From assembly GCF_009914755.1 (NCBI RefSeq), contig NC_060941.1: 64,000 nt of DNA, one strand, 5' to 3'. Source of the stretch: the human T2T-CHM13v2.0 reference genome, Homo sapiens. Both the position numbers and the translations under genes were made by a program. A model generated the notes under the pieces. That model did not search any database, was not told the DNA's origin, and was given only the letters and a program-made list of their open reading frames with translations. This document shows, one piece after another, positions 11,444-33,506 of this stretch (position 1 is the stretch's first letter; each line of letters opens with the position of its first letter).

Positions 11444-11616
11444 GAAGTCAGCAGTGTCCACAGCAAGGGAGAGTTTCTTGAGCAACCTGCTGGGAGACCT
11501 AAGAGTGAAATAAAGAGTGAATGTCAGGTGAAAACATTGAAAAGATGAGGACTGACAAGTATTTACAGGGGGTTAACTCTGAAGTGGTTCCAATAAACTG
11601 TGATCTTGAAAAGCAG

Positions 11617-12146
11617 GTAGTGGAGGGAAAAATGGCTTCCCCTTCTAGGTTCTTTGGCTGGGCTAGGAATTAAATTGACATAAGACGGGCTAATAGGAGA
11701 ATAAAAAACTTTAATTACGTCTATATGCACAGGAGTCCCACAAAATATGGATGAGGAGAAGGGCCAGATGAATGAAGCTTAGATAGTGTCCTGAGTTACA
11801 GAAAGGAACAGGGGCTTGGGGCTTGCTGAGGATGGGCACAAGTTCTGGGAGGGTGAGGGGAGGCAATGTCTGGTGAATAAAAGGTGTCTTGTTCTGCAGA
11901 GAAAAGTCTCTGGGGTTATAGAAGTTGTCTGGAACCAGCCCTCTTCCTGATACAGATAATTCACTAATGTAGATTTTTTTTATAGTTATAAATTTCTTTT
12001 ACAAAAGGGCAGCTTTTCAGAGCTACTCCTGTGTCTGCAATTTCTTAGAATAACAAGATCAAAATTTGCCTAAGAAGTATATTTTGTGTTCACATATCTG
12101 GTTTTGTATTGTCATATTTTGGGGTGGTGTGTCCTGAGCCCCACCA
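11617..12146 (-). mobile_element. MER34/MER39-like ERV1 LTR
   Basis: Right end reverse-complements to tggtggggctcaggacacaccaccccaaaatatgac, a MER34-family start. Near-TSD GCAG/GCAA. Confidence 0.75.
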
Positions 12147-12211
12147 GCAAGGGCCATGTTATAGGAATATAATTTTTAATTGACTTTTTAGAGTTGTTTT
12201 GAATTCACAGC

Positions 12212-12713
12212 TGAAGGGGCTTAGAGTATACCATCCCAAAATATGCCACTCTGACATAAAGATTATTTTGAGCTGAAGACAACTGAGACCAAGTAGACAC
12301 AGGACAAACTCTCTGCCCTGTCCCCATCTACCAGAAGGGCAGGATGGCTCTTACCAGCCCAGAGGTGGCACCAGAAAAATCAACATCACAAGCACGCCAA
12401 ATCAACCTTATCTGTCAGCTTCTGCCATATATCTACCTTCCCACAACTTGTTATCCACAGAAGCTCAAGGTCCCCTTCCTTTGTCTTTCCACTTCTCTAC
12501 AAATACATTGCTCTCTCATTAGGGTGCTAATAAGCCCAAGTTCTAACCGCCTTTTTGAGTTATTATCACTGAGCTCTCCCATGTGTATTTGCGATGCATG
12601 AATTAATAAATGTGTTGTTTTCTCTTGTTAACCTGGCTTTCATTGGTCTAAATTTGTGGGGCCAAGGCACTAAACCTAAGATGGGTGGAGGAAAGATTTT
12701 TTCTAAACCTATA
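12212..12713 (+). mobile_element. MER34-like ERV1 LTR
   Basis: Starts tgaaggggcttagagtataccatcccaaaatatgccact; AATAAA at ~12605; TSD CAGC at 12208-12211 and 12714-12717. Confidence 0.85.
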
Positions 12714-12927
12714 CAGCAAAATTGAGCTGAGCGTGCAGAGAACTCTCATATGAACCCCTCACCGGCCCACACATGTGCACACACACACACCCACACACGC
12801 ACAGCCTGCCCTACTGTCCATGTCCCACATCAGTGGGGCACATTTGTTACTACAGCTAAACCCACACCAACACATCATTTTCACCCAAAGTCTGTGGTTC
12901 ACATTAGGGTCACTCTTGGTGTTGTAT

Positions 12928-13721
12928 TGTCAGTGAAAAGAGCCAAACTCTGTAAAATATTTGAAGAGATTTATTCTGAGCCAAATATGAGTGACCCAAG
13001 GTATAGTCTCAAGAGGCCCTGAGAACATGTGACCAAAGCGGTTGTTTTACAGTTTGGTTTTATACCTTTTAAGGAGACATGAGACATTAATCAGTACATG
13101 TGAGATGTACATTGATTCAGTCCAGAAAGGTGGGACAGCTCGAAGGGGGTCAATGGGAGGAAGGCTTCCAGGTCATAGGTGGATTCAAAGATTTTCTGAT
13201 TGGCAATTGATTGAAAGAGTTATTATCTAAAAACCTGCAATCAATAGAAAGGAATATCTGGGTCAAGATAAGGGGTTGTGGAGACCAAGGTTCTTACCAT
13301 GTAGATGAAGTCTCATGGGGGTCACCCTTAGAGACAATAGATGGCCAATGTTTCCTATTCAGACTTTTAAAAGGTGCTAGACTTTCAGCTAATCTCTAGA
13401 GGATTGGGACAGCCTGGAAGGGAAAAGAGCTAGTTATGGTAATAGAGATTCTTTACAGGTGCAAATTTTCCCCACAAGAGACAGCTTTGCAGGGCCATTT
13501 CAAAATATGCAAAAAAAAATCCTATTTTGGGGTAAAATATTTTTATTTCCTTCTTTATCTGTCATATGATGTTATACGAGAGTCAGGTGGGAAAGTAAGC
13601 TGTGTTATATATAAGGTTAAATAAAGCCCATCTGTTGAGATGTCAGTTTCTAGGGTATGACTCCCCAGGCCCCTTAGATAGGAATTTGGGCAAGAGAGAA
13701 AAAATGTCAGTTTAGTCCTCA
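12928..13721 (-). mobile_element. MER4-family (MER4D/E-like) LTR
   Basis: tgtcagtgaaaagagccaaactctgtaaaatatttgaagagatttattctg ... tttagtcctca; near-TSD GTAT/GTAC. Confidence 0.85.
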
Positions 13722-13994
13722 GTACATTCTTTGGGTTTGAACAGATGTCTAATGCCATATCCACCACTGTCATATCATACAGAGTAGTTTCACAGTCTGG
13801 CAAATCCCCTGTGCTCTGCCTGTTCATCCCTCTCTCCCCCAACCCCTGCCAACCACTGCTCTTTTTACTGTCTCCATGGTTTTGCCTTTTCCAGAATGTG
13901 ACAGAGTTGGAATCTTACAGTATGCAGCCTTTTCAGATCAGTTTCTTTCAGTTAGTAATATGCATTTAAGGTTCTTTCATGCAGCTCAATAATG

Positions 13995-14900
13995 TTTGGC
14001 AGAGACTCAAAGGCAGGGAGAGGAATGGGAAATCTGCGGTGGAAAAGGGGAAGAGGAGTCCTGATGGGGTTGCCAGCCACCAGAGGCGGCTGCTAGTGAA
14101 GTGGCCTCATTGTCTGGGGTGACACCCAATGTTCATTGTCTCACAGCCACAGAGATCAAGGGCATGGACACACAAAGGGTGAGGTTAAGAGTGGAAATTT
14201 AATACGTGAAAGAAAGAGAATAGCTCTCTGCTACAGAGAGGGGTCCCGGAAAAATAGGTCGCTGATGCACAGTGCAATGCAAAGATTTTTATAGATGAGC
14301 TAGTGGGGAGCAGTGTCTGATCTACATCGGGTGTGAAAAAACAGGACCAGGTGTGCCATCTGCATAGGGCACGAATCTCTGGACGCCCCCACACCAATCT
14401 TCTATTTATTACGCAGGTGAGTAGCTACTCCATGTTGCTTATTTCTTTCTTACTGTGCATGTGTTAACAACAACAAAAAAAAAAAAAATTAGGGAAGGTG
14501 AACCCCCCATGGTGGACATGCCTGGCCCCAGGTAGTCCTTTTTATCAGTGTGGCTGCAGGCCTCCCCCCAGGCAAGCTTCCAGCTTCCTTAACTATGTTT
14601 GCAGCTCCATCTTTCAGGCTGCTCTTTGTTAGAAAGAAATGATTTCTTGGGCTGTTTTTTGTCAGAAGTTCTGCCAAGGACTTTTTTGCCCTATCTGCCT
14701 AAATAATTTATTTCCATCTCCTGTATCCAGTCAGGGGATCCTACCTGACTGGTAAGAGGGTGCCTATTTGGTTCTCCCTGTTGGTCCTAGGTTCGAAGCA
14801 AGGGCAAAAAGGAGGGAAGCCGTCAGTGCAGTCCTGACCATTAGGGTTGCTGTATGCAGTTTCCAGCTGGTTACTTCACAGACTGTGGGTCAGAGTGTCA
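13995..14900 (-). mobile_element. ERV1 LTR (same family as 23708-24260), split by a nested LTR
   Basis: 14780-14827 is the reverse-complement counterpart of ~23970-24018 (cagcttccctaatttttgtcccggcttccaacttagaaccaac). Confidence 0.6.
14097..14727 (-). mobile_element. LTR27/28-like ERV1 LTR
   Basis: Right end reverse-complements to gatacaggagatggaaataaattatttaggcagatag, typical of this group. Confidence 0.7.
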
Positions 14901-15000
14901 CCAGGCTCTCGGGTGGATTTTTTAAATCCCACGGACTGAAACCCTTCTTTATTATCTCCAGTCACTTGAACATCTTTCTTTGATTGACAGTTTATTCAGT

Positions 15001-15295
15001 GTTATTAAAAAAAAAAGCTGCTACTATTACTACTACTACTACTACAATTACTATTTATAATAATGGTAATAATTATAGTAATGATGAATCCCAGCAAGGA
15101 CCAAATAATTATAATTACTGATTTAATATTTATACATAAATATTTATTAAAATATATAATCTATATATTACATATATTTATACCATGACATTTATAGTAT
15201 CTACATAATTACATATTATTTGTGTATTTATGACTATTTATATTTATAAATTACATAATAATAAGAAGAATATTATTACTATGACTACTATAAGC
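15001..15295. repeat. AT-rich low-complexity block, (TAC)n/(TAA)n/(TA)n mosaic
   Basis: Seen directly. Related blocks at 15770-15932 and 21510-21592. Confidence 0.9.
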
Positions 15296-15299
15296 CTCA

Positions 15300-17200
15300 G
15301 GACTCCCCCCGCCCCCCACCATAACAGAATATACCCCTTTAACCATCCAGCCACCTAATCCCACGTTGCCCCCGCTGGTCGAGCTTGCTATATATAAAGG
15401 CGGCTGCCAACTGTTGCAAGACAACTAGCTAAAAAGCCTGCCGAACAGATCGGGATCGCGGGTGGGCAGGTAGGACGCCAGGCCTCGTCCGGGTCCACCT
15501 CAGGTCACATTCCCACCTCGGGGCACCCTGGCAGGCATGAGTGGAACCGTGAGATCCCTGGTAGCCAAAAGAAGCCTTGGAAAATTTTGGGGGGAGCGCC
15601 CTGGGCCAGGGACAGCTGCCGGGCAGGGGACAGACTCCCCAGCGCCTCCCGGGCCAGCTGCCCACCCAGAGTGGACTTCAAAATTCACCGGGGTCAGCCT
15701 GCCTCAGCCTCCCCAGGGGCATGTAGAAATTTCTGCGGACCGAAAGCCCCTCCTGCGTCCTCTTCGGAACTATAACTGTTTATATCTAATTGCTATTTAT
15801 GTAGATTGATTATTTATAAAGTATAATTTATACTTCTACAAATTTATATTATTTATATTCATATAGTTTGTAAATGTAAATAAATTATTTGTTTATAATA
15901 CTTGCTTATAAGAATTACCATTGCTGTATAAACCTCAGGTTCCACCATCCCCCTGCCCCTACCCTCCCCTTCGCACCTTGCCACGTCCTTCTCCCCTCGC
16001 CTTGGCCCCTTCTCCTCTCCCAAATTCTAGTTGCCCATCTGCTTGGTTGGGCTGCTGATCGATCTGATCAACTTTCTGAGGCCACATCAAAACTGCAGAA
16101 ATGAGGCTGATCGACCCAGCAGCTCTAACAAAGATCATCCATCGGACATCTGGTCGCCTCTCTATTTTGGAGCCAGAGGCTGTACGCTCTTCCCCGGTGG
16201 GGAGGGTGGGGCCCCAAAGTCCAACCACAAGATCCCATTTTGCAGGCCGCGGCTAAATCCACTGCGCCTTCCCCGTTTTTTCTCGAACTGCCCAAGCCAG
16301 ACTCCACCTCCAAGACAAGACTCGGAAAAAGGTGTGAAGCTCAAGTCGGATGACCACGACCCACGCGTGGCCACGGACGGGCCCATGTTATTCTTCGCAG
16401 TCCTCCTGTAATGGCCGGGCGGGTCCTCGCCTCCAGGGCGGGGCTTGGAGATAATGGGTGTAATGGAAGGCCTGAGGACCCGGCCCCACGCCAGTCGGAG
16501 TCCGGGCGGAGTAACCCATCCCCCGTTCACACTCTCGGAAGGCCCGTCGATTCCTGCGTGTACTAGTCGACCCGCTCAGGCCACAGCACTCCGAGCTCAA
16601 TAGTGCGCCTCCAACGCTGACCCGCAGGTTTAATCTCCGACGAAAGGACGAAGAGTACACCCGGCAAAGCCGGGCTCATCCTGCCAGTGCTGCCAGTCCC
16701 CTTGAACTCTGCACGGCGCCCTGTGGCCAAATCCCCTTTCTTGCCGGCTTCGCCAGAGCGCCGGAGAGAAAACCTTAACAGTGCAGCCAGGTGGCGCCCA
16801 ACAGCCGGCGCAAGCAGCCGCGGATCGGATCGGCATAGCCAGCGGGCGAGGCCTCTCCTAGTCCCTGACCACCTGGGATCGCGTTTCTTGGCCTGGGCCG
16901 GGTGGAGGAGCTCCCAGTTGGCACGGCCTGGAATGACGCGACCCCGCAGCCGAAGGGGACTTGAAAATTTTTCCTAACCACCGTTCCGCTCCGAGTTACT
17001 GCTACCTGCTAGGACAGACCTCCCACGCGGCTCCGGGCCTGGCGATCTTCCGCGGGAACCGGGAACGTTTCCGGAGATCCCCGCAGGCCGGCGCCCTGCC
17101 TCGGCTTCCCAGTGCAGCGGGGTCGCGGGCTCCCCGAGGATTCCAAAGTTTTGCGGGGCGCCTGCGGCGGGAGGGACCCTGAAGTTGAAACTGTGAAAGG
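15300..17200. promoter_or_regulatory. CpG island, candidate promoter (interrupted by the AT block at 15770-15932)
   Basis: The most CpG-dense stretch in an otherwise CpG-depleted window; GC-box gggcgggg at ~16436; not recognisably TE-derived. Confidence 0.85.
15389..15475 (+). promoter_or_regulatory. TATA box, putative short first exon and 5' splice donor of a non-coding transcript
   Basis: TATATATAAA at 15389-15398 in GC-rich context; MYB-type CAACTG at 15408-15413; CAG|GTAGGA donor with GT at 15470-15471. The TSS (~15420) is inferred. Confidence 0.5.
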
Positions 17201-17384
17201 CAGAACGTGGGTGAATCGCTTTTATTCTGTCTTTTCGGAGTGGGAAAGCCTTTCTAAAGCATAAAATAAACCCAGAAGCCATCAAGGAAATGATTGATCA
17301 GCTTGACAACATAAAGTTTCACAAGCAACGTCAAAAGATAACAAATGAGTGTGGGGATCGCTTATGCATAAGATAAGAATATTG

Positions 17385-17965
17385 ATTTCATTCACAATAG
17401 CCAAGATACGGAAGCAAGCTAAGCATCTACCAGTGGGTGAACGGAAAAAGAAAATGTGATGTATGTACATCAGGGGGTACTATCCCGCCTTTGAATAAAA
17501 GGAAATCCTGCTATTGGCGACAACGTGGATGAACGTGGAGGCCATTGTACTAAGCAAAGTAAGCCAGGCACAGAAACAAATACCACTTGGTCTCTCCTGT
17601 ATGTGGAATCTGAAAATAGTTGAACTCATAGAAACGGAGAGTAGAACTGTGGCTACCTGAGGCCGGGGGAAGGGCAGGAGGGAGGAGATGTTGTTCAAAG
17701 GGTACAAGGATTCAGTTAGACAAGAGGAATATGTTTTAGGGATCCACATGACACGGTGACTGTAGTTAATGCATTTTATATGTCAAAATCCCCAAAATAG
17801 TAAATTTTAAATATTCTCACCACAAAAAATAAATGTGTTGGTGATGGATGTCTTAATTAGCTTAAAGTAATTATTCCACCAATGTATACATATATCAAAA
17901 CATCACATTGTATCCCATAAATGTATACAATTATGATTTGTCAATTAAAAATAAACTTTAAAAAA
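17385..17965 (+). mobile_element. L1MA 3' end
   Basis: ttcacaatagccaagatacggaagcaa...tggatgaacgtggaggccattgtactaagc...tttgtcaattaaaaataaa. Confidence 0.85.
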
Positions 17966-18399
17966 TCTTTTTAAAAAGATTTCAGCATTATTTACTATAA
18001 TAACAAAAAAACTGGGGTGGGGGTAATAGCCATTGATTAAGAGGGGTCAGGTTAAATAAACTCCAGTACATCCACACCATACACTGTGTGAATTTGTTTT
18101 GTTTGTTTTAGATGAGATAAATGTTGATGATGAAATGTTAAATGAATAATTTAAAACAAGTATTAAGTTACCTCTATTTCAACACATTAAATAGCTAGTA
18201 AAGACTGTGTGGTGTGGACAGAGGGATATGATCTACAGAACCGAAAAGAGACCAAAACAAATGCACCCAGCTGGTTTTTGACAAGCATGCAAAAGCACCT
18301 TGTGGCAGGAAAGGTAGCCTTTCCATCAAATGGGAGTAGGGCAATTGCACATCACAGGCAGCAAACAAGCAGGCAAACCAAAACCCTTGACCTAGACAC

Positions 18400-19230
18400 T
18401 GTCAACTTTAGAATCCCAGGCCCCCACCAAATGAATGGACCCCCTCTTGGCCAAGGGGACCTCAGGAAAATCTTAAAAGTTTAGTTCTAGTCTGCCTGGG
18501 GTGGGAGGTCAAACATGCCTCATTATACCCCCTGCCTTTTGGGGTTTAGACCAGCATTAATGTTAACATAGAGATCAGAAGACTGACAGAACAGACTCTG
18601 TGGCAATAAAATACCAAGTTATAAACAGGACCTAAGGCCATGCCAGGCAAGGGTTAAGTCACTAACACTACGCCTAAAGAATAAACTGTGTTCCAAGGAC
18701 CACAAGGCTTTTGTTTTTCTCTGGCAGCTAAACAACCACTGGCCTCAAGATAGACAAGATTAAAACAATTTCCAGCTCCACCACCCACTGACTTACTAAA
18801 CCCCTGCTCTACCAGCCATAACTTCCTGATAAGACCACCAACTATGGATTGTCTTTGGCTGGTTTACAGAGGCTGCACACTTGTGTGACTTCATGCCCTG
18901 AAAAGACCTGTTGACATATAGGACCTAACTGTAATACATTTAAATGTTAAGTCTCCACCCCAAAGTGAACATGGATCATATGCTACATGCATGTCTGTTC
19001 AATATGCATGTGCTAGGACCACCTTCATGAATATTCATAGCTCCTCCTATAACCTGTTGAATATGTATGTTTAGCCAACCTGCCCAGCATAAAGCTCCTA
19101 CCCTAACCCCTCCTCCTTCAAAGTGCCGTTTCTGGTCCCTTGGCTGAGATGGCCACCTTAAAGGCTGTAATCCTTATGAGAAATAAAGTCTCCTCATGTT
19201 TCTAAATGGATAAATTGTGGGGGTTTTACC
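18400..19230 (+). mobile_element. MER4-family LTR
   Basis: gaatggacccccctcttggccaagggg...catgcctcattataccc; AATAAA at ~19182. Confidence 0.8.
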
Positions 19231-19419
19231 CTCACACCTCATGCAAACATTGACTCCAAATGGATCACATATTTCAATGTAAAATGTAAAACTATAAAAT
19301 TTTAGGAAAAAAAATCTTAGAGAAAATTGGGATTTAGGCTAAAAAATGAGATTTTATACTTGACATCAAAAGCATGATTCATAAATAGAGATGGGTAAAT
19401 TGGAAGTCATCAAAATTAA

Positions 19420-19740
<321 letters not shown>

Positions 19741-19889
19741 TGAAATGTCCTTTTAAGAGGAGGAAAACAAAGTATAGATCAGAAGAATATATTTACAAAC
19801 CATATATTCTACAGGAATGTGTAAAAAAAAAAACTCAAAACGCAACGGTATTTTTCTTCAAAATCCAATTACAAAATTGATGAAAGACA

Positions 19890-20486
19890 TGTTAAAGTAT
19901 GCCCCCTGCAGAAAGACAAAATGACTCCCAGGAGACTAACTGAGTTGCTCAAAGTTAAAATGGAACCAGGCGGCTGTAGCTGGGTGACAGAGACTTCATG
20001 TACTCTGTGTTCTTAGAAAGATGTTATAAAAGTATCACAAGACCTCCCTTCCACAACCAAACCAAACCAGTTCCTGTTGTCAGTGTCAAGATAACTGTAT
20101 CCGGAGCACCACTTCCCTGGACCCCTGACAGCCATTTATAAGAAATTTCTGACAGTCTTCTGCTTAAGGCTTAAAGAACAACAAGTCAGAACTCCCCTGC
20201 CCTGACTAATCAGGACTCAACTGCATCAATCAGGGTTCACCTGGATCGACTAATCAGGATTCAGCTACATCCACCGATCAGGACAGCATGAGTTTCAGTC
20301 CTTCATTTACATAAATGAAAGTAGTTGGAAACCTGGACAGAAACTTTTACCATAGAGCCCAAACCCTTTCTTAGTTTTCTAGAACTTACTTTCCTTTTAC
20401 ACTGAAGGCTGCAACTTCCCCATTTACAAACTGTTCACTGAAATAAAGTCACTTTCCACATTCCTTTTCAGAAAACTTAGCTCACA
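19890..20486 (+). mobile_element. ERV1 solo LTR (MER72/LTR47-like)
   Basis: TG...CA termini, perfect TSD GACA at 19886-19889 and 20487-20490, AATAAA at ~20442. Confidence 0.82.
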
Positions 20487-20769
20487 GACACGAACTAGCA
20501 TTTCACTGAGCAGGACGTACAGATGGCAGGTCGGCACATGAGAAGACGTTAGCCTTTTGTGGGAGTGTAAATTAAAATGACAGTGAGACGTCATGACACA
20601 TCCATCAAATGCCTTCAACAAGATACAGGAACAGCATCAAATGCAGGTGAGGCTGTGGAGGAACGGGCTTTCTCACACATTGCTGGTGGTAAGGTAATAT
20701 TGTACTGCCACTCTGGAAAACAGTGTGGCAGTTTCAAAAAAGAAAACAGCAACAACAAAAACATGCAAG

Positions 20770-21286
20770 TGAAGCGTGGCAGAATATGCCACCCCAAAAT
20801 ATGCCACTTTAGCATAAGGGTTATTTTGAGCTAAAGGCACTTGAAAAACAGCAGACACAAGGAAGATGCCCTGACCTCCCCTTTTTCTTCCTGAAAGTAG
20901 GAGGTGAATCTCCCATGGGAAAGGTGCCCTCCCTGTACCAGGAGGAAGGAAGCAATTCTTACCACCAGAGGCAGGGAGTTGGGGCCGAGGGGAATCTGTA
21001 CAAACAAATCTCGTTAAACTAACCCTCATCTGCCTCATTACTTCTCCACGATGAACTGCCCTATCCCAGACTCCATTGTCTTCAGGTTTTCACAACTTAC
21101 TCTTTGTCCAACCTAGTATATAAGTGTTCAGGCCTAACTGCTTCTTCGGATCTCTTTTTCCTACAGGGTTCCATTCACATGTGCAAATCTGTGTGCTTTT
21201 CTCCTGTTAATGTGTTTTATGTCCACTTACCTCTTAGGCCCAGCCAGAAACACTAACAGTAGAGGTAAAGTTTTGCTTCCCCTGCA
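20770..21286 (+). mobile_element. MER34-like LTR
   Basis: tgaagcgtggcagaatatgccaccccaaaatatgccacttt start; near-TSD CAAG/TAAG. Confidence 0.85.
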
Positions 21287-23707
21287 TAAGGACCATGTAA
21301 CCCAGCAACCAAACCCCTGGGCATTCACCCCAGAGACAGGGGAACTTGCTGTGCTTGAAGGGTTGATTCAGTGCCTCTGGGGCCGAGGACTCCCCCTGAC
21401 CTCTGACCCTGGGCTACAGCAGGAATTAGAATATTTCCCAGCCTGAAACTCCTCTTTCCTCAACTTCAGTCAACCAGACACCCTTTGTGGATGGAAAAAT
21501 CTCATTCAGTGTTTTTATAACAATAACAAATAATAATGGTAATCATTACAATAATGATGAACAACAGCAACAATAACTATTATTATTATTAACCTTGGGG
21601 GATGAAAGGGTAGGGTACAGACCTCCACAATGCTCCTGGAGAATGACCACCTACTCCTGCTGGGTCCCAGGGTGGGCTGGGGTCAGAGTCCCAGGTTTGC
21701 ACGTGCAACATGCTCTGTGAAGGCAAGGGGTGAGCAGCAGGAGGAAAGGGAAATTACCCTAACAGGGTGTGGCAGACCAGTGAGGACCCTGGGAGGAGAA
21801 ACAGGGGAGGGATGTGCAGGGAGAGGGACCCAGGTCGGGCACCCGCTGCCTGGTCAGTGAGCTGCCAAAGCTTCCTCCACAAGTGCTGGACTCCTTGTCC
21901 ATGCCTGCCTACCCGGCCCCCGGCCAGCAAACCGCGGGCACCAGCTCATGGTGCACAGAAATATGCACTCCAGATGAATCGCACACCTCGATGTTAAACG
22001 TAAAAGAGAAAACCTCAGTAGAGAATGCTAAGCGTTTGTGTCCCCTGGAGAAATGTTCTTCAGTGTGGCACAGCAGAAACCCAGGTGGTCAGCAGCCCCA
22101 TCTGGTGTGGTGCCAGGGAAGAGCGCTGACTTGTTAGAGCAGCCTGGAGTTCTGCCTGCTGCGATCCATCACGGCGGCCTCTGCATCTGCAGGGTAAGGC
22201 CTTCAGGTTTAGCACTGCAAACCCAGGCATTTGGAGTCTGTTGGGCCAGTATCGCTGCTCAGGTGCAGATGGGCCAGCTGACTTCACCTGAATTGTAGCT
22301 GCCAGCCTTCGTGAGAAGTGGGGGCGCTTCTGGGACCGGCCGGCTGGGGCATCGGGTGCACCATTTCTACTTGAACACACGTCCCCCAGGCACTTGGGGC
22401 CCCCAACACGGAAAGCGGCCATGAGGTGCTGGGCCTCCCTCTGGCTAGGGGGAGCAAGGAGACAGCGAGTGTGGCAGCCAGGACTGGGCCTCAGTGCTCC
22501 CAGCGGGTGGGGGTGTGACGGGTGTAGTCAGGCCAGGTCTGTGGGGAAGGTTTGTAGGACTGGGGCTGGGGGCTAGCCTTGAGTCCTGAGCCACCCACCA
22601 GTGGCAAACTGCAGTTTTGCAGAGGTTAAGCCTCCGGCACCTCTCTAAGGCAGCTAGGCTGGGACAGGACTGGCAACAGCAGCACCAACACCTGTGTGTC
22701 CTGAGCAGGGGGTACTGCACTCACCGGCTCCAACCAGCAACGTCATTAACGTTTTTCTCCACTGTGAGGATCATGCAAACCCTACCAGTTTGATTCCAAT
22801 GTTTTTTGAAAAACATACTTGAACACAGAGCTGGGAGTTTTGACAGGTAGGCTTTAGGAGCTTTGTCACCACCACCAGGACACAGGGATCTCCCGGCAAG
22901 GTGCTCAGGGACCTGTGGGGCCCAGAGGCCAGGGGGCTGGGAGGGCCTGGAGTGGCCAGCAGGGAGGCTGCAGAGCCATGCCTCCTCCTCCCCTAATCAC
23001 CCCAGCAGACCTTCCTCTGAGAAGCAGCAGACCAGGGAGGGGGCATGTGTCATTCTCTGCCAGTCACTTTCTTCTCCACTCCACCACCTATGCATTTAAC
23101 ACAGAAAGTGCATGAGGCCACGCTGTCTGCAGTCAGCCACCGCCACTGCTCCATCCAAGGACTCTGCACTGGAGGCCAGCAGGATGCCCTGGGCTTCCTG
23201 CAGGGGCTAAGCCATGCATGGGTCCCAGTGCAGTCAAGGCCCCAAGGCAGTGAGAAAGGTTCAGCCTGGAGGTGGGTGGTTAGGCATAGGTCCTCGAGAG
23301 TCCCTTTAAGGTCTCAATCCTAGTATCGCGTGGGGTCCCATTGCTGTGGTTCAAATTTCTCAGTCTTTCCCTTGATTTTGCTGGTTTTGCCTCTTTACAG
23401 ATTATTTCCTTTTGGGTTTTCTCTACTTCTAAAGAATTTTTTGTTGTAATTATTTCAGACACTGCCTGAGAATTGAGATTTTATGGTTTTCAAGAGTTAC
23501 GGTTTTCAATACATCTTCATGTTCCCTCATCCTATTCTCCTAGAAGTTGGCTCTGTGCTGTTAGCTGCCTCCACACATGTGCCCTTCATTTGTTAGGACT
23601 CAAGTGTCACATCTGAAATGGGGGCTAGCAAGGTAGATCTGCAAGACCTATCCCTTGGTTGAAGTAGCAAGCCCTGGAGTGGCCCAGCAGGTGCTGATAA
23701 GCTGACC

Positions 23708-24260
23708 TGTGAGAGACTGAATATACAATGACAGTGGCTAGACTACATAAAAAATCAAACTCTGAGCCATAATCTGCAGCAACCAGCCCCAAAGCCAGCC
23801 CGAGATCTGCAGCCACAGCCCAGGAAGCCAGCCCGTTAGAAGTCAGATGTGCAGGAAGCCAGCCCTCTAGAAGTCAGACGTGCAGGAAGCCAGCCCGCTA
23901 TCTCCAGTCAATCCAGGGAGCTTAACACCGCCCTGTAACAATCAGCCCAAGACAGTCAGAACTTGACTAATAACAGCTTCCCTAATTTTTGTCCCGGCTT
24001 CCAACTTAGAACCAACCAGAAAAAGTGAAATCTACTGCCCTAACCGACCACACAGGAGGCCCCATTTCTGGTCGGCCACCCCAGTTTCCCCAAGCCAACA
24101 GCCTCCACTCGGAGTGCACCTGGAGCCTCCCCTTTTTCCACTGTGAACCTTTCCCATCCTCTGCCTGCCTGGAAATTTCTACCAAAATGCAACTGGCGAT
24201 GGCTGACTCCCTTGCTGGGGCCTTTGTGTCTCTCATTTGAGTGGTCTTTGCTTATCTCCA
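23708..24260 (+). mobile_element. ERV1-class LTR with an internal 31-bp tandem repeat
   Basis: TG start; ctgcagcaaccagccc/caggaagccagccc reiterations; related to the reverse LTR at 14.0-14.9 kb. Confidence 0.7.
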
Positions 24261-24730
24261 TGCTGCTTGCTATGCTACTACGGATGGGCATTTCCTGCCC
24301 ATCCACGAAGATTTCACGTGCGTGCCTGGGGTGGCAGCATACCCAGGTGCATTTCTCCTGCCTCCTCCTTCTCTCTTTATCCCGCAGTCTTCCTCCTCAC
24401 CCAGCTAGCCACAGGTGTCCACATGGAGCACAGTCTGAGGAGAGAGCAGGGTCAAACACAGCCAGGTTCTAGGTGGAGCTGAATGGGGTTTGACAGGTGC
24501 CAGGTGCTCCCCCAGATGGATCTTTACATCATAAAAACGATTTTGTGCTTGAAGATGTGGCTTCAGATCCACCAAGCATAAAGTCACCACCTGAAATTAG
24601 AAAGAAAACATCCAATAAATAGGCCTTCTTCACTCCAGCAACCCTCTCCCCATGTGCCTTCTGAAGCTCCTGCAGCAAGCCTGCAGATGGGTTCAGAAAG
24701 TGTTTCCAAGAGGAGCACCACACAGCTCTA

Positions 24731-24745
24731 ACAGACAGACAGACA

Positions 24746-24778
<33 letters not shown>
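24731..24778. repeat. (ACAG)n(AC)n compound microsatellite
   Basis: Seen directly. Confidence 0.95.
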
Positions 24779-24779
<1 letters not shown>

Positions 24780-25339
24780 GAGTCAACATGAGGGTAAGAA
24801 TGAGGAGAGTGATGGCTGCAGTGTCTGAGAGAATTTAGTCTCAAGGATTAAGGGAAGGCTCCCCAGGCGAGTGGGAAAGGTGAGCAGTGTTCGGTCTCTC
24901 AGAGGCGTGGATGGAAGTGTCGTCCAGGCAGAAGACAAATGCACAAGGCTTGAAGCCGGAGCAAACAGCTTCCATATGCAGGAGTGAAAATGGCAGGCAC
25001 TTCTATGGCAAATCCAAGAGTGAGGCAGGAGGGTTCAGGGCCTAGCATGCCAGGCCAGTGACTTTGTGGAACCAGCAAACCAAGCTAGGCAAAGTGTGGC
25101 ATGTTACTTCCTTATAATATTTTTAATTAGAATCATAATATTTTCTCTTTAATGCAAAGAATAAATAAATTCTTAAATAATACCTAGCCCAAGGGCCACT
25201 ATCCAGAGACACTCAAGCTGCCAGAATTTTTAATGTATCTTTCAAGAAATATTTTCTATATAAACAGAAGCCTGAGATGTATATGCCATTTTTTGTGGTC
25301 TCTTCCACCAAAACTTCCTCAAATGTATTAAGAGCACAA

Positions 25340-25792
25340 CTCTTGAAAACATGTTCCCACTGAAACGTGCACACAAACGTTCTTAGCAGCATCATTCATT
25401 ATAGCCAAGAAGAGGAAACAACCCAAATGTTCACTGACTGATGAATAAACAAAACCTGCTCCATCCACACAATGCGACATTCACACGTGAGGAATGCCGC
25501 ACCGTGGTGAACACCAGAAACAGCAAGTTCAGTGAAAGAAGCCCGTCATAAATAACTCCATTCATGGAAGTGTCCAGAATAGGCAAATTCGTAGAAATAG
25601 AAAGTAGATGAGCGGTTGCTTAGGTCTGGAAGGGATGGGGAGCATCCTGTCAGGATGCCGAAAATGTTCTGCAATTGACTGGATAATGGCTTCACGGCTC
25701 TGTGAATATGCTACCAACCGCTGAATTGTACACTTCAGTGGTGAATTGTTTGAAATGCAAATGACGTCTCACTAAAGCTCTTATTAAGAAAT
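25340..25792 (+). mobile_element. L1MB-like 3' end
   Basis: gcagcatcattcattatagccaagaagaggaaacaacccaaatgttc...gaattgtacacttcagtggtgaattg. Confidence 0.8.
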
Positions 25793-26341
25793 ACATGAGT
25801 TGATGGCAGATGGCTATCAGGATTATGAGGGTGACATCTCAGGGGAGGAGCTGTGTGTGTGGAGGTGCTAGAACTGCACAGGACATCAGCCATTAAAGGG
25901 TCCTCTGATCTAAAAATAGGAATTGTGATCTGAGTAATTAATGAGACACTGGCTGTCCTGAATTTGCAGCTAGTAAAAAAGTTGTGAGTCAGGAACAAGC
26001 TTGGTTTTTCCATAACAGGATTTTGGCTGCTGTATAAGAGAATTGGCTGGAAGAAGCACCATTCACAAGCACTTACTGTCAAGAAGCAAGAAGCACAAAG
26101 CACTTATCATCAAGTAAGAAGGACAGGACTCCCAGTAAGGGGGTAGCAGAGAGATGTTGGCAACTGGACAGATGCACAATACACTTGGGAGGCGACACTG
26201 ACAGAACATGTCTCTGGGGACATGCAAGAAGAATTAGGTAAAAGCATAGGTTATATCAGGGTATGTCAAAAACAGTGACAGGAGCAAATAAATAATCTAA
26301 ATTGAGGAATGCTGATTTGAGAATTCTCAGACATGGATTAC

Positions 26342-26943
26342 TGATGGAAAAGCCAAACTCTGTAAAATATTTGAAAGAGGTTTACTGTGAGTGAATGAGT
26401 GACCGTGGCCTAGGGAAACAGTCTCAGAGGGCCTGAGGAAGCGTTCCCGAAGCGGTCAGGTTACAGTTTGGTTGTATACATTTTAAGGAGGAAAGAGTTC
26501 TAGGCAAAGACATAAGTCAACCCACGCATGGACGGTATACATTGGTGTGACCTGAATAGGTGGGACATCTTGAAGCAGGGGTTTAAAGGTCATAGATGGA
26601 TTCAGAGATTCTCTGATTTGCAGTTGGTTAAAGGAGTGAGCTCTGTCTAAAATTTGATGTCAGGAGAAAGGCATGTTTTAAGTTAAGGATGCTATGTAGC
26701 AAGGTTGATGGCCTGCAGGCCTGAATAAACCCTTGCCTGGCATGGCCTTAGGTCTTGTTTATAATTTGGTCTTTTATTGACACAGAATCTGCCTTGTCAG
26801 TCTTAAGATCTCTAATGTTAATGTTGGAGAGTTGCACCTAAACTCCAAAAGGGAAGGAGTGTAACAAGGCTTGGGATCCCCTTGGTCAAGAGGGGGTCTG
26901 TTCAGTCAATGGGTGCGGCTTAGGATTTTATTTTTAGTTCATA
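26342..26943 (-). mobile_element. MER4-family LTR
   Basis: gccaaactctgtaaaatatttgaaagagg (shared with 12940-12968) ... ggcttaggattttattttt. Confidence 0.82.
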
Positions 26944-26988
26944 GGATGGATCAGATTGTTTTTCTTTTGTGATTACAAATAAGGCTGA

Positions 26989-27300
26989 GGCCAAGCATAG
27001 TGGCTCATGCCTGTAATCTCAACACTTTGAGGGTTGAGGTGGGAGGATCGTGTGAGCCCAGGAATTCAAGACCAGCCTGGGCAATATAGGGGGACCTCGT
27101 CGCTACAAAAAATAAAAAAAATAAAAATTAGCTGGGCATAGGAGCCCACTCACGTGGTCCCAGCTGCTCAGAAGGCTGAAGCAGGAGAATCACTGGAGCC
27201 CAGGATTTCAAGGCTGCAGTGAGCCATCGTTGTGCCACTGCACTCCAGCCTAGGCAACAGAGTGAGACTGTCTCAAAAAATAATAAATAAATAAGCAAAT
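26989..27300 (+). mobile_element. AluJ-type element
   Basis: Full Alu. TSD aaataaggctga at 26977-26988 and 27301-27312. Confidence 0.94.
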
Positions 27301-27460
27301 AAATAAGGCTGAAATGAACAGCCTCATCCATATCTTTTCATGAACACCCACCAACTTTTCCCTCCGAATAGCTTTCTAAAGCTTTCGAATAGCTTATTTT
27401 TAAGTCATGCAATGACTTGACAAATTGCGTGTTAGGAAGCCTGTTACGAATTTAGACTCC

Positions 27461-28262
27461 TGTGCTATTTTGAAATAGATATTTGGTCTTCATCCCCATC
27501 CCCACTTCCTGGCAAAAAGCTCCTAAAACCCTTGGAATCTGCAGAGTACTAAGAGTGTCATTTGTGTGCTAATGAAATGACTGGTGGCTGGGGACCCTAG
27601 ACAGCTTCAGGATGGGGGCTGGCCACCAGAAAGACAGAGGTGGGATTAGGGGGTTGGGACTTTCACCTCACTTGCCAACATCTGGGGAGAGGAGAGGGAC
27701 TGAAGGTTGAGCTGATCACCAATTGCCAATGATATGGTCGATCGATCATGCCTCTGTAATGCCGCCTCAGTGAAAACCCGCAAGGACAGGGTTTGAAGAG
27801 CTCCCAGATACCTGAATACATGGAGCCTGGAGGGCGGTGTGTCTGGAGCAGGTGTGGGAGCTCTAAGCCCCTTCCCAGATGCCTCACCCTGTGCACCTCT
27901 TCCATCTGCCTCTTCATTTTCATCCTTTGAAATATCCCTTGTAATAAATGAATAAGTGTAAGTAAAGTGTTTCCCTGAGCTCTGTGAGCCACTGTAGCAA
28001 ATTAATCAAACCTGAGGAGGGGATACTGGGAATCCTGATTTGCAGCCAGTTGGGCAGAAGAGCAGGTCACAACCTACTACTTGTGACTGACATCTGAAGC
28101 GGGGACAGTCTGGTGGGACTGAGCCCTTAACCTGTGAGGTCTGACACTGTCCAGGTAGAGAGTTTCAGAATGGAATTGAATTAGGAGACACTCAGCTGTT
28201 ATCTGCTGAAGGAGTGGTTGATGTGGAGAAGTCTCTACACATTTTAGTGACCGGTGATCAGA
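27461..28262 (+). mobile_element. MER21-family LTR
   Basis: gctcctaaaacccttggaatct...aataaatgaataagtgtaagtaaagtgtttccctgag. Confidence 0.8.
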
Positions 28263-28268
28263 GAAACA

Positions 28269-28822
28269 CAATTATCCTTTGGTATCTTCAAATGGATTGG
28301 TCCCAAAACTCCTCCCCTGGAAGGGTTTTGGTGATTTGGACACCAAAATTACTGGCTGCTCAAGTCCCTTATATAGGAAAGTATAGTATTTGCATATAAC
28401 CTACACACATCCTCCACATGCTTTAAATCAGATGTGTCCAATCTTTTGGTTTTCCTGGGCCACATTGGAAGGAGAATTGTCTTGGGCCATACATAAAATA
28501 TACTAACACTAACAATAGCTGATGAGCTTTAAAAAATCACACACACAAAAAAATCATATGTTTTAAGAAAGTTTACGAATTTGTGTTGGAGGGTAGGCCA
28601 CAGATTGGACAAGTTGCTTTAAATCACCTCTAGATTACTTATATCTAATACAATGTAAATACTATGTAAATAGTTGTTATATTGTATTGTTCAGAGAATA
28701 ATGGCAAGAAAAAAGTCTGTATGTTTAGTACAGACACAATCATTCTTTTTTTCAAATGTTTTTGAATCGAGGTTGGCTGAATCCATGGATGCAGAACCCA
28801 TGGATATGAAGGAGTGACTGTA
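28269..28822. mobile_element. MER2-like Tigger (TcMar) element, split by MER30
   Basis: gctcaagtcccttatata...gcatataacctacacacatcctcc and gaatccatggatgcagaacccatggatatg...gactgta. Confidence 0.8.
28429..28616. mobile_element. MER30 hAT-Charlie MITE
   Basis: TIR-like ends cagatgtgtccaatc / gattggacaagttg; perfect 8-bp TSD CTTTAAAT at 28421-28428 and 28617-28624. Confidence 0.88.
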
Positions 28823-28849
28823 TTCTGTGTGGAATTTATGCTGAATGGG

Positions 28850-29400
28850 TTGGCAGAACATACATATTCAATAAGCTATAGGAGGAGCAATGAATATTTA
28901 TGAAAGGAGAAACGTGAATGTGTCATTGAGTTTCATGACTCTTCATGGGTCATGTGTTCATGGGAGGGTGTAGTTTTTAGCCTCTGACATCAAAAGGCGA
29001 AGGAGGGGCCAAAAACCACTCACTGTGCATCCTCTGTGAGCCAGCCAAAACTGGTCCAGAGGCAGTGGTCCATTTTAGGAAGGATGCACTGTGAAGCTGG
29101 TGACTGTCACTCCAAAACTGCAAAGAGGTAGGGCGAGTCCAGCCACGGCCTCAGATGATTGGCTAAAGATGATAAAGGAAGGAGTCCTGTGTTTCTTGTT
29201 TACCAGAGCTGGTTTCTGCTTACTCCTTAGGAAAGAGTTCTGGCTAAAGGTTAATATGGAAGGGACATGCTGAAGTCTGTCTGACCTTGCATCCCGTCCT
29301 GGCCAGGAGCTCAGTTTTTAAGATTTCTCTGGGGTCCCTTTGGCCAAGAGAGTGTTCTATCAGTCAGTTGGGGAAACTTATGATTTAAACTTTATTCCTT
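28850..29400 (-). mobile_element. MER4-group LTR (MER65-like)
   Basis: ggggtccctttggccaagagag...cagtcagttgggg terminal block related to the other MER4-group LTRs here. Confidence 0.65.
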
Positions 29401-32400
29401 GGGTCAGTTTAATAGACCTTGCAACTTTAAAATAAGCATTATCAGGTCTAAGAACTCAGTGTGTGAGCACCACTCAAGCATCACAACCTGCTGCCAAGAT
29501 GCTAAATGTTGTAAGAAAATTAATAACTTAAAGGCAAAAACTGACCTCCATGAAGATGAAAAGTCTGATGGCACTGTAACTCTAGAGAAAGGAGCATGTG
29601 TCCCCATTGAGGGGAAGGCAGCGTCCATTTCAGGGCACACTGCAGGCATGTCAGGGTGTTTCAGGAGTCTGCCAGGTGTCCTGTCTTGTCACTCGAGACT
29701 CCAGCCCAGGGACAGACAGAAAACCAGAAGACAGCACCTCCTGGCCAGGATCCCAGCATCCATTTGAGGGAGACAAGATGAGAAGGGACAATATTGTTGT
29801 AGCAAAAATAATAGGTTCTCCACTTCCTTACATAGGAGGAAATTCCCACACCTTGATAGGAGGCAGTTCCCCTTCCTGCCCACCTTGGCACAGGCGGTCA
29901 CACTCCCCACCTGTATGTTGAGGGACTGTGCAAGAGGGCAGCACTGTCTGAGTTGGGACATCCACAACCCCCTGCTCCTGCCCACCCTTGGCTTGAGTGC
30001 TGGCGACGGCAACGTCCCCTCTCAGCCCTGGCCTGAGGTCCTCCACCCTTCTTCAGTTCTCTCTCTCAGGCCTCCATCATCCCACAGCTTTTCTTCCAAT
30101 CTCTCCTCTTTTTTCTTTTTGATGACGTTTCAAAAGAGTCAGCATTTTGGAAGACAACTGTAGACTTGCTTTCAAATGCAGAGCATCAGAGAGCCATGGT
30201 CTGCCCACAGGTGGCCTGCAGCAGGGCAGAGCTGTGCCTCTGATGGCCAAGGGGGAGGTCACACTTGCTGCCTCTGTCCTCCTTAATGCTCCTGTGACAC
30301 AATTAGAACAAAGCCTGACTGCCGTGATGAAGAAGAGGTGAACTCATGCTGGTGGGTGTCTTGTCCAGAGCACGTCAGCCACCCCGTGAGTTGGCAGAGC
30401 CAATGGGCAGACACACAGGATGAGGTTACAGGAAGATGCTCTCCTGCAGCAGATCCAAGGAGACAGAGACCCCAGCAGATGGCCCGAGAAGCTCCCACCT
30501 GCACCTCCAGCATCAACAGGCAGACAGAGAACTCCTGTTAGAGGGGATGAGGCAAGTCTGGGACCCTTAGAAGACTGCAGGAAGAGCTGCAGATGGTGCG
30601 AAGCAGGTTCACTAATGACCAGTCCAAGGGAGGCCTCCCATTGCATGGAGAGCAGCAGAGACCATCGCTGCCCCTCCCACAAGGAGTAGTTGGTCTGGAA
30701 TATTTGCTACTTACACCTTATGAATCTCCCAGTTACTCGTTGGTGTGCTTTTAACTAACATGAGAAGCAGGGACTGGGCTGTTTGTTGAGTATTATGTCT
30801 TGATATTTTTTAGTTCAGTTGTACATGTTAGTAACAAGGGTAGGGGTGCAGGGTGTCCTCATGCATGGCTGCTATAAAGGTCATGAGCAATCAAAAATAG
30901 AAATAACTATTTCCATTAATTAGGATATTATTGTAGGATGAAGGTGGAGAATGTATGCTCTGAACATGAAAAAGAGGGCTTGGATCACAGCTCTGCCTTC
31001 TGATATTTTGTTTGTTTGTTTGGAGCAGGTGCTTGATCCTTTAGGTAGAAAGCAAGCTTAGTGAAGTTAAGTGATTGTCCAAAATCATGCTGCTTCTTAC
31101 CAGTTGGCTAGAATTCAAACCCGAGCTGACTTAAATAAGAGCCCAAATTTACACTGGTTATGTGGGAGAGGGGTTGCTTTTGTTTATTTCTCATTACTGT
31201 GAAAAGACATCTTATACTCAGTAGAGGATATAGAGTCTATTTTTATACTCTAAAAATTATAATGACATGCACATGCATGTACCATCACCCACTGGAGACA
31301 TGCACCGGTCCACCTGCCTTTGCAGCTCTCATTTCACATTCCAGCCGCCTGCTACACTCACGTCAGCGGTGCATAGAAGAACTTCGGTTATTTCTCGTGT
31401 GAGAGTTCACCTTTTGCAAAGGCTGACAGGAAGTGGATGATGAAGAACTGAGTTTTATGTAAAGGAGAGGGAGAGGTAATTGATGGATCATGGCTGAGTG
31501 CACCGCAGGGAGGAAGGATGGAGGGCACGGGTGGAGGGGAAGGTCATCATGGCAGAGACGGGGACATCTCAGATGAGATGCCCAGAGGTGTAACAACTCT
31601 GATAGGAAGCTGTGCTGTGTGCCACATGCCTCTGCAGGCTGCAGACCAGTTTGGATCTTACTGGTCTATGTATCAAGATATGGAGTGAGCTTACCCTCTC
31701 CAGACTGCAATTCCTGTGAGTTTCTCTCTTCTCCTTGGAATCTGAGTTTGTTGGTTCCAGAGTAGCTTTCCAGCTGGGGATCTGGGGTGAGATTTCACCA
31801 GCCAAAGGCTGTTGGAAGGCAAATCAGGATGTTGGGTATGGGCTGGGCTAACTGCAGGGCTGGACTGAGCACTGGACCCTCAGGGTGTCACCCCTGGGGC
31901 AGGGTGGGCTTTGGGAAGAACACAGCCCTGGCAGGTGCCCACCTCTGCCTAGTTTGTGCTGGTTGCTATGGGAGTGAAGGGGCCGCCAAGTGGTAGCTCC
32001 AGGTGGGGCTGGCCCTCCAAATTCCAGGCCTATAATTTATCTGGCACATATAACCCCTCATTTGAGGCTTAATTTGTTTCCAAAGCCTTGAGTTTGAGAG
32101 ATCTTACAAAACTTTTATTTTATTGTCATCATATTGTGACAAGTGAAGACATACTCCAACAAAAAATTGAGGATAAACTCCAGTTTGATGAGTTTTTCCT
32201 CCTTTTGGTGTGTTGATATCAAGGACGCTGTTAGACATAAGGATTAATATCAGGTCTGCTTTTCAGACACTGACGCAGCCAGGAGAAGGGGGACATGGCC
32301 TCCACAGAGTTGCAGGTGGAGCTTGCCTTGCAGCAAGGAATCCCAGGCCAAACTAAGCAGGGCAAGCAGCACCATTGAGTGTCCCACTGCGTGATTGGTT

Positions 32401-32693
32401 TCATGTGTTGAAGAATCTACAGCCTGGAAAACAAGTGGCAGAAATCTGAATGGCAGCATGGTCACAGACACTGGCTGGCTGAGGACTTCGAGACTGTTGT
32501 GGTACTTTCTCAAGGCTTCTGTTCCCTTACTCATCAATTAGAGTTGACAATGGACACTGATCCCTGTCTCTCCTGTGGATTCACTGCTACCTGGAGTCAG
32601 GAGAAGGGAGCGGGAAGCAGTCAAATCCTTTAGGGCCTTAGTTCTTGTGGACCAACATGTTAACAAGTGCAGCTGTCCCAAGCTCTTTGTTAC

Positions 32694-33144
32694 TGTGGTA
32701 GGCAGAGCAATGCCCCTCAAAAGCTGTTCCCATCCCAGGCCATGAAACCAGCGACCATGTTACATATGTGGCAATGAGGATATGCCCCTGCATTGAGGTG
32801 CGGCTCTGGAGATGTCCTGTATTTCACAGGTGGGCCCAAGATGATCACAAAGTTCCTAACCAGGGAGGCAGGAGGGCCAGGTCATAGAAAGAGAGGTGGG
32901 CGTGGAAGCAGAGGTTGGAGTGATGTGGCTGTGAGCTGGAGAATGTGGACAGCTTCTAGAAGCTGAGATGGTGAGGAACAGTCTCCCCAGGAGCCCCCAG
33001 AAAGGAGCACAGCCCTGCAGACAATGTGACTTTAGCCAGACAGACCCATTTGGGATTTCTCGCCTCCAGAAATGTAGCACAAACATGTGTGGTTTTAAGC
33101 CAGTTTGTGGTATTCAGCCACAGCAGCAATGAGAAACAGACATA
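32694..33144 (+). mobile_element. MLT1-family MaLR LTR
   Basis: tgtggtaggcagagcaatgcccc ... ttaagccagtttgtggtatt...cagcagcaatgagaaac. Confidence 0.85.
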
Positions 33145-33242
33145 ACTTCCGTGTGATTCCTTGACAGGCCACGTGGCTCAGGACTCCTGACTCCTTCCTG
33201 GCTTTGCTTGCTTGACTGCAAGACACAGTAGGGCTAGACACC

Positions 33243-33473
33243 TGCTGCGGTCTGAGTGTGGCCCCCAAAAGCATGTGTTGGAAACTTGGTCCCCAGTGCA
33301 ACAGCATTAAGAGGTGGGACCTTTTATTTTTTAAAATAAAAAGGTTCCATGAGGAAGAGCTGAAGTAGGTGGAATCTTTAAGAAGACGTGATTAGGCCAT
33401 TAAAACTCTACCCTCGTGAATGGATCAATGCCCTTATCTCGGGAGTGGGTTAGTTATCATGGTAGTGAGTACC

Positions 33474-33506
<33 letters not shown>

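What the first reader, a model, noticed from the sequence alone, without database searches (positions are those of the whole stretch)
21380..22450. A fourth, detached copy of the module, separated from the island by later TE insertions
Seen directly: 21530-21570 matches 15057-15097 at 35/41 ungapped positions. The non-low-complexity run-up also matches in order (CTGAAAC, CAGTCA, ATTCAGTGTT at 14936-15003 vs 21443-21513). Further shared motifs are AGAGAAAACCT (16765 vs 22005), CCAGGTGG (16787 vs 22081) and GCCTGCTGCGATCCATC (22154-22170). That last motif is followed about 40 bp later by a donor AGG|GTAAGG (GT 22194), mirroring the donor at 15470. The interval ~17.3-21.35 kb is almost all L1/LTR/Alu. 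Inference: removing it restores an array of at least four units older than those L1M insertions, and this copy has partly lost its CpGs.
Basis: partly seen in the sequence, partly recalled or inferred. Interest (0 to 1): 0.7.

Follow-up and report, generated by a model that had tools for sequence, protein, structure and literature searches.

The report
Old 230-base local duplication relic
A 230-base piece from the front of a CpG-rich island on human chromosome 17 is repeated 6.5 kb downstream, beyond a block of transposons, but the rest of the island is not detectably repeated there, so this is likely an ordinary dead leftover of an old local duplication and not a fourth working copy.

Summary
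The repeat is real but short. 14869-15119 aligns with 21361-21587 (148/209). The non-repetitive run-up alone gives 88/135 (0/300 shuffles reach it), and the 32-base core matches only four places in the genome: these two and their twins in a 93%-identical segmental duplication at C17:21.45 Mb.

The GC-rich body is not detectably copied. A profile of it finds nothing at 20-25 kb, end-to-end alignment gives z 0.5-1.8 (positive control 8.9), and shared short words are at chance level. The island holds two detectable units, not three.

About 87% of 17186-21360 is dispersed repeat. However, the L1 beside the copy lacks its last ~490 bases, so cutting out transposons does not restore a seamless array, and the order of events is open.

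Between the two duplicated loci, 21591-22450 has lost CpGs like bulk DNA (20/37; flanks 124/198), whereas the island is protected (36/124). Verdict: a likely inert relic of an old local duplication. A body decayed beyond detection cannot be excluded. The island itself, CpG-protected yet diverging about twice as fast, is the more interesting object.

The parts
21361..21587 (+). The duplicated block (downstream copy): 153-base run-up plus a short AT-rich head
   Evidence: 148/209 identical to 14869-15119, 0/300 shuffles
14869..15119 (+). Upstream copy of the same block, directly in front of unit A
   Evidence: the run-up is found only here and in the paralogue at the sensitivity of the genome search
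21530..21561 (+). 32-base core, a decayed (ATn) triplet run with shared interruptions; partner at 15057-15088; absent from unit B
   Evidence: 4 genome matches at up to 3 mismatches; next best place in the island has 13 mismatches
15127..15775 (+). Island unit A: AT block, C-rich run, TATA box 15389-15398, donor-like CAG|GTAGGA at 15470, GC body and tail
   Evidence: AT block 124/172 and body 176/301 identical to unit B, 0/200 shuffles each; motifs read from the sequence
15777..17197 (+). Island unit B: AT block, about 800 bases (15960-16770) without a counterpart in A, GC body 16783-17110 that lacks the donor (6-base gap), tail
17186..21340 (.). Block of nested dispersed repeats: old repeat 17186-17320; L1 3' piece 17390-17966; one L1 in four collinear pieces (18196-18388, 19230-19421, 20490-20735, 21288-21336); three LTR-like elements (18400-19228, 19889-20488, 20767-21289); Alu 19437-19747
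   Evidence: family names not tested
21336..21361 (+). Junction where the L1 stops about 490 bases short of its poly(A) end and the duplicated block begins; likely a deletion or rearrangement breakpoint
   Evidence: the L1 ruler match ends at 4342 of about 4840, and nothing beyond aligns
21591..22450 (+). GC-rich unique stretch with decaying CpGs (o/e 0.32 here, 0.45 in the paralogue, at least about 0.5 before the duplication); not detectably homologous to the island; donor-like words at 21728 and 22192
2444..37650 (.). Segmental duplication: this stretch (at least) has an inverted paralogue at G000:C17:21439002-21475044, 92-94% identical, holding the island, the repeat block and the copy in the same order

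Best explanation
21361-21587 is a true homologue of 14869-15119 and is likely the inert remnant of an old local duplication of the island's leading edge, with no recognisable GC-rich module behind it.

Shown: common descent of the 230-base block; two diverged tandem units (A, B) in the island; nested repeats in between; an L1 cut short at the left edge of the copy; bulk-like CpG loss downstream of the copy; and duplication of the whole region to a second chr17 locus.

Inferred sequence of events. (1) A roughly 0.7-0.9-kb AT-block/GC-body unit was duplicated locally more than once, probably by unequal crossing-over, around or before the placental radiation (block divergence 10-14 times that of the segmental duplication). 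(2) An L1 inserted behind unit B and collected three LTR-like elements and an Alu. (3) A deletion removed the L1's 3' end and whatever stood before 21361. (4) The downstream copy lost, never carried, or diverged away from the GC body; it became methylated in the germ line and drifts neutrally. (5) The region was then copied as a segmental duplication, in Old World primate times by its 3.2% non-CpG divergence.
For: Run-up 88/135 with 0/300 shuffles; whole block 148/209. Core unique to these four places in the genome. The profile of the GC body from four sequences finds only its training copies and no row at 20-25 kb among 30 rows at E<=50. Local alignments of island parts to 21591-22450: best 7/400 shuffles, inconsistent between paralogues over 12 comparisons. 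End-to-end z 1.8, 0.84, 0.51, 1.24 vs positive control 8.9. In simulation, CpG decay alone would not hide a body as close as B is to A (97% still detected). CpG decay 20/37 vs flanks 124/198 (p 0.36) and vs island 36/124 (p 0.006); non-CpG divergence 3.6-3.9% vs flanks 3.2%, so no sign of constraint. L1 pieces collinear on an in-window L1 ruler, 3442 to 4342, then stop. No Pfam match in six frames of 12001-26402; no Rfam match in the copy.
Against: Power is limited: with 10% extra substitution on top of CpG decay only 51% of simulated bodies are detected, and with 20% only 13%. One collinear weak hit exists (15525-15630 vs 21756-21860, 64/102, 5/300 and 7/400 shuffles) and lies just above the 99% null (1930 vs 1857), but it is not reproduced with the paralogue. 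One other comparison (paralogue's B-extra vs paralogue's copy) reached 0/150 under transition-free scoring, out of collinear order. 21591-22450 is CpG-richer than 5 other GC-matched window stretches that do not overlap its core (o/e 0.32 vs 0.08-0.26), as a decayed island would be. The core is better kept than the rest (31/32 with the paralogue's A copy, permutation p 0.006-0.01; 29/32 and p 0.15-0.18 with the window's A copy), which could mean a constrained motif. No other mammal and no methylation or RNA data could be examined.
Confidence: 0.6

Rival explanations
1. One reading: 21.4-22.45 kb is a whole further module of a once contiguous tandem array; its GC body has decayed beyond detection, and transposons alone separated it.
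For: The run-ups weakly match the tail of unit A. It is the best non-training hit of the run-up model (paralogue E 0.011, window E 0.27; E 0.066 with nhmmer). A position-fixed test, chosen after seeing that hit, gave 0-14/1000 shuffles for the upstream run-up and 7-151/1000 for the downstream one. There is a weak collinear body hit, elevated CpG o/e, and limited power.
Against: No significant body alignment by profile, local, transition-free or end-to-end tests. Quoted motifs are at chance level. Only two units in the island. The L1 is 3'-truncated at the junction, so more than insertion happened. The shared block is the part in front of the A/B repeat, and unit B lacks its core.
Confidence: 0.22
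2. The block is a short templated insertion, copied from 6.5 kb upstream during the repair event that cut off the L1's 3' end. It would then be younger than the L1, and the GC stretch behind it would be unrelated flank.
For: Homology starts within 25 bases of the L1 break and ends sharply at 21587. Nothing behind it aligns. Its divergence is of the same order as that of the repeats from their genomic copies.
Against: No microhomology at the junctions was demonstrated. The resemblance of the run-ups to a unit tail suggests a history of whole-unit duplication.
Confidence: 0.13
3. Both copies are independent insertions or relics of an ancient interspersed repeat too old for word-seeded searches.
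For: The genome search is seed-limited and says so. No repeat library was available.
Against: The core has no other genomic match within 3 mismatches. The run-up model finds no further clear copy in 84 kb or 104 kb. Two copies 6.5 kb apart in the same orientation.
Confidence: 0.04
4. Chance similarity of two decayed (AAT)n microsatellites.
For: The AT part does hit an unrelated locus (C21:40331163, 85% over 53 bases).
Against: The run-up aligns without the AT part (0/300), and the core is unique in the genome.
Confidence: 0.01

Closest known systems
Decayed local (tandem) duplication inside a primate pericentromeric segmental duplication on 17p11.2
   Same: Old same-strand local copy, nested retroelements, and a 92-94% paralogue elsewhere on the arm. 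The bioRxiv preprint 10.1101/2021.07.12.452052 (passages read) describes this pericentromeric region with KCNJ17, UBBP4 and LINC02002.
   Different: This particular 230-base block and the two-unit island were not found described in my searches.
Germ-line-unmethylated CpG island / orphan promoter
   Same: The island has GC 0.62, CpG o/e 0.79 in unit B, CpG protection between paralogues, and a TATA box plus donor in unit A. PMC3218846 (passages read) reports that CpG substitution rate follows sperm methylation.
   Different: Applies to the island, not to the finding, whose CpGs decay at the bulk rate. No transcript is annotated.
Tandem alternative first-exon arrays of germ-line genes such as MAGEA4 (recalled, not from a call)
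   Same: Repeated promoter-like unit with a short exon and donor.
   Different: No downstream coding exon; only unit A keeps TATA and donor; no sequence match elsewhere in the genome.
Human pachytene piRNA clusters
   Same: A fast-diverging, promoter-like, gene-free locus would fit.
   Different: The human list in PMC7782496, supplement 6, shows no chr17 row between 20.95 and 26.59 Mb.

Membership tests
Full copy of the island module | Homology of the leader and AT head beyond low complexity | tested here: met
Full copy of the island module | Homology of the GC body | tested here: not met
   power falls to 51% with 10% extra divergence
Full copy of the island module | The long AT block shared by units A and B (15127-15315 / 15777-15959) | tested here: not met
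   alignment ends at 15119/21587; later windows match only the short AT head
Full copy of the island module | TATA box and donor at collinear places | tested here: not met
   no TATA-like run in 21591-22450; donor 22194 lies beyond the collinear end near 21967
Contiguous array split only by insertions | Intervening DNA is transposon-derived | tested here: met
   about 87%
Contiguous array split only by insertions | Clean insertion ends (L1 3' end and poly(A) at the junction) | tested here: not met
   L1 stops at ruler position 4342 of about 4840
Contiguous array split only by insertions | Duplication older than the L1; contiguous in other mammals | not testable with these tools
   no other mammalian genome held; divergence comparison inconclusive
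CpG island (germ-line unmethylated) | CpG o/e above 0.6 and protection from decay, for 21591-22450 | tested here: not met
   o/e 0.32 and 0.45; decay 20/37, like flanks
Segmental duplication | At least 1 kb at 90% identity or more elsewhere in the genome | tested here: met
   at least 35 kb at 92-94%
Pachytene piRNA cluster | Listed among human piRNA-producing loci | tested here: not met
   PMC7782496 supplement 6, 7 human chr17 rows seen in order of position (30 of 60 'chr17' hits shown); one list only
Protein-coding gene or pseudogene | Match to a protein family | tested here: not met
   17 of 18 ORFs had no Pfam family and 1 a sub-threshold hit; 0 of 6 frames

The most novel reading that the evidence does not exclude
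An ancient, unannotated tandem array of promoter modules (AT block, TATA box, CTCF-like site, short exon and donor). Units A and B stay unmethylated and mutate about twice as fast as their flanks in the germ line, while the unit cut off by the transposon block was silenced and eroded. With the segmental paralogue this gives a four-way natural experiment on how a CpG-island unit lives or dies, and the well-kept 32-base core would be a functional protein-binding element.
Probability: 0.15. Interest if true: 0.45.

Novelty: new member of a known kind. Interest (0 to 1): 0.17.

Why it matters
As it stands it matters little: decayed local duplications inside segmental duplications are common, and this copy shows no sign of function. 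If the novel reading held, it would offer homologous promoter units in protected and methylated states side by side and in two genomic settings. That would allow a direct test of whether transposon insertion cuts a unit off from CpG-island protection, and of why germ-line-open islands mutate faster.

Tried and rejected
Low-complexity artefact: rejected.

Third unit inside the island (15931-16770): no alignment to either body, 212-297 of 400 shuffles reach the score; no profile hit.

Inverted unit at 16843-16883: 8/200 shuffles, while the direct alignment is far stronger.

Protein-coding remnant and structured RNA (only Alu-derived matches and two at chance level): none.

Further genomic copies of the island body or run-up: only the paralogue (seed-limited). 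A profile search of the whole genome was not possible, so very old relatives remain untested.

piRNA cluster: not in the one list read. In that paper's supplements one PDF had no text and two files were too large to read.

CTCF-like site (pattern recalled): one-mismatch matches at 16784 and, in the paralogue, in both units, but the window-wide count is at chance level (2 vs 2.4), so it is only a lead.

Literature: nine searches (FLJ36000; C17orf51; LINC02693/LINC02002; KCNJ12 with duplication terms; piRNA terms; two on germ-line mutation; CpG-island duplication terms; recalled clone names) gave no listing that describes this block or island. Most were seen as listings only. Passages of PMC4498748, PMC11084170 and PMC12999487 only name the neighbouring lncRNAs.

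The wider flanks of both loci (beyond 40 kb at the paralogue and beyond the window) were not read, so further partial units there are untested.

Full report
Observation. It is the best non-self hit between the island and the 21-kb region in a self-BLAST of the window. The homology is wider than 41 bases: 14869-15119 aligns with 21361-21587 at 148/209, and the run-up without any AT-rich part gives 88/135; 0 of 300 dinucleotide shuffles reach either score. The 32-base core matches, with up to three mismatches, exactly four places in the genome: the two window copies and their two twins in a paralogous locus. The AT part alone also hits one unrelated locus on C21, so the run-up and the core test carry the weight.

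What is not copied. Sliding 250-base pieces of 14730-17350 against 21340-23300 on both strands gives strong signal only for pieces holding the leader or AT head; all later pieces reach z 2.6 at most. A profile HMM from the GC bodies of units A and B in both paralogues finds only its four training copies; none of its 30 rows at E<=50 lies at 20-25 kb. Twelve local comparisons of island parts with 21591-22450 give at best 7/400, 4/200 and 5/200 shuffles, at places that differ between paralogues. End-to-end alignment of unit A from the end of the AT head gives z 1.8, 0.84, 0.51 and 1.24; unit B's body gives z 0.81 to -1.89; the positive control gives 8.9; 2 of 68 GC-rich control stretches score as well as the best. 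Shared words of 8-11 bases are at chance level. Two of the quoted motifs are altered in the paralogue, and donor-like words occur 25 times on this strand. A simulation shows that CpG decay alone would leave a body detectable (97%), but 10% further substitution halves the power and 20% leaves 13%. So the body is not detectable, which does not prove it was never there.

The island. It has two alignable tandem units: AT blocks 15127-15315 / 15777-15959 (124/172) and GC bodies 15403-15713 / 16783-17110 (176/301), each 0/200 shuffles. The stretch 15931-16770 matches neither body, so no third unit is seen. Unit A has a TATA box at 15389-15398 and a donor-like site at 15470; unit B has a 6-base gap at that donor. 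The block shared with the downstream copy ends almost exactly where the A/B repeat begins, and unit B lacks the core. Both run-ups weakly resemble the tail of unit A (15690-15770): this is the best non-training hit of a run-up model, and a post hoc position-fixed test gives 0-14/1000 for the upstream run-up and 7-151/1000 for the downstream one.

The gap. Dispersed repeats were shown by genome search or by an in-window young L1 used as a ruler: 17186-17320, 17390-17966 and 18400-19228, 19889-20488, 20767-21289, an Alu at 19437-19747, and L1 pieces 18196-18388, 19230-19421, 20490-20735, 21288-21336. Together they cover about 87% of 17186-21360. Two of the three LTR-like elements have TG...CA ends with 4-base flanking repeats (one exact, one with a mismatch). 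The four L1 pieces are collinear on the ruler (3442 to 4342), so they are one element interrupted by later insertions. It stops about 490 bases before the ruler's poly(A) end, and nothing after 21336 aligns, although the ruler does detect that part in the other old L1 at 17390-17685. Retrotransposition starts from the 3' end (established knowledge), so a missing 3' end implies a later deletion or rearrangement at 21336-21361. Excising the repeats therefore cannot give back the ancestral state. Three pieces tested against the ruler were not significant (17150-17385, 17960-18170, 19745-19895).

The paralogue as a clock. Window 2444 to at least 37650 is duplicated, inverted, at G000:C17:21439002-21475044 at 92-94%, with island, repeats and copy all present. 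Between the two loci, CpG sites lost in one copy are 124/198 in flanks, 20/37 in 21591-22450 (p 0.36 vs flanks) and 36/124 in the island (p 4e-9); unit A's body alone is 15/29, like the flanks, so protection is mainly in unit B. PMC3218846 (passages) links CpG substitution rate to sperm methylation, so I infer that the copy is methylated in the germ line and unit B is not. Its non-CpG divergence (3.6-3.9%) equals the flanks (3.2%), giving no sign of constraint. Distances: segmental duplication 0.033, duplicated block 0.32-0.47, A-B bodies 0.61. The repeats are about 67-80% identical to most of their best genomic copies, so block and repeats are of similar age and their order cannot be read from divergence.

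Function. No Pfam or Rfam match explains the region, the hub's annotation lists no gene, and the island has no other detectable relative in the genome. It is not in the human piRNA-locus list of PMC7782496, supplement 6: the rows jump from 20.95 to 26.59 Mb, and a FLJ36000 probe at 21.91 Mb in PMC4498748 places the window in that gap, assuming both tables use the same older assembly. I commit to an inert relic for the copy (0.6), against a whole decayed module in a once contiguous array (0.22), a templated junction insertion (0.13), an ancient repeat (0.04) or chance (0.01).

A side result. The island diverges faster at non-CpG sites than its flanks (84/1385, 6.1%, vs 463/14419, 3.2%; transversions 3.0% vs 1.25%). 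The three highest of 47 400-base windows lie in it, but windows elsewhere range from 0.3 to 5.7%, so the Fisher p of 3e-7 overstates the case. PMC8559717 (abstract and one results section read) reports raised mutation at spermatogonial protein-binding sites, which would fit a germ-line-open promoter; this is inference. The core's 31/32 identity with the paralogue's A copy (permutation p 0.006-0.01, but 0.15-0.18 with the window's A copy) is unexplained.

Verdict. A real, previously unremarked (in nine paper searches) but ordinary piece of genome archaeology: new member of a known kind, interest 0.17.

Noticed in passing
window 15000-17800: The island is protected from CpG decay yet shows about twice the non-CpG divergence of its flanks against the paralogue (6.1% vs 3.2%). 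It may be an unannotated germ-line-open promoter with a raised mutation rate.
   Followed up: partly
window 15389-15471: TATA box followed about 70 bases later by a donor-like site in unit A. Both are kept in the paralogue, though its donor has one change. A polypyrimidine tract ending in AG at about 16029 could be an acceptor. No transcript is annotated.
   Followed up: partly
window 16784-16796; L026 1704-1716 and 3030-3042: CTCF-like word (pattern recalled) at the homologous place in both units of the paralogue and in unit B of the window; chance level window-wide.
   Followed up: partly
window 17400-17800: CpG protection extends into the old L1 next to the island (8 sites kept, 1 lost).
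   Followed up: no
window 15553-15614 and 23413-23428: The paralogue lacks about 62 bases of unit A's body and has about 585 extra bases at 23.42 kb.
   Followed up: no
window 2444: The match to the paralogue ends here within the stretch fetched (C17:21475044), a likely edge of the segmental duplication; the other edge lies beyond 37650.
   Followed up: partly
window 11042-11490 and 11754-11917: Long identical runs between the paralogues (172, 275 and 163 bases; 0.3% divergence in one window), possibly gene conversion or constraint.
   Followed up: no
window 23772-23900: Tandem repeats of 31-33 bases inside a dispersed repeat spanning about 23700-24270.
   Followed up: no
window 59153-64000: A young L1 on the minus strand with broken reading frames; used here only as a ruler.
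   Followed up: no
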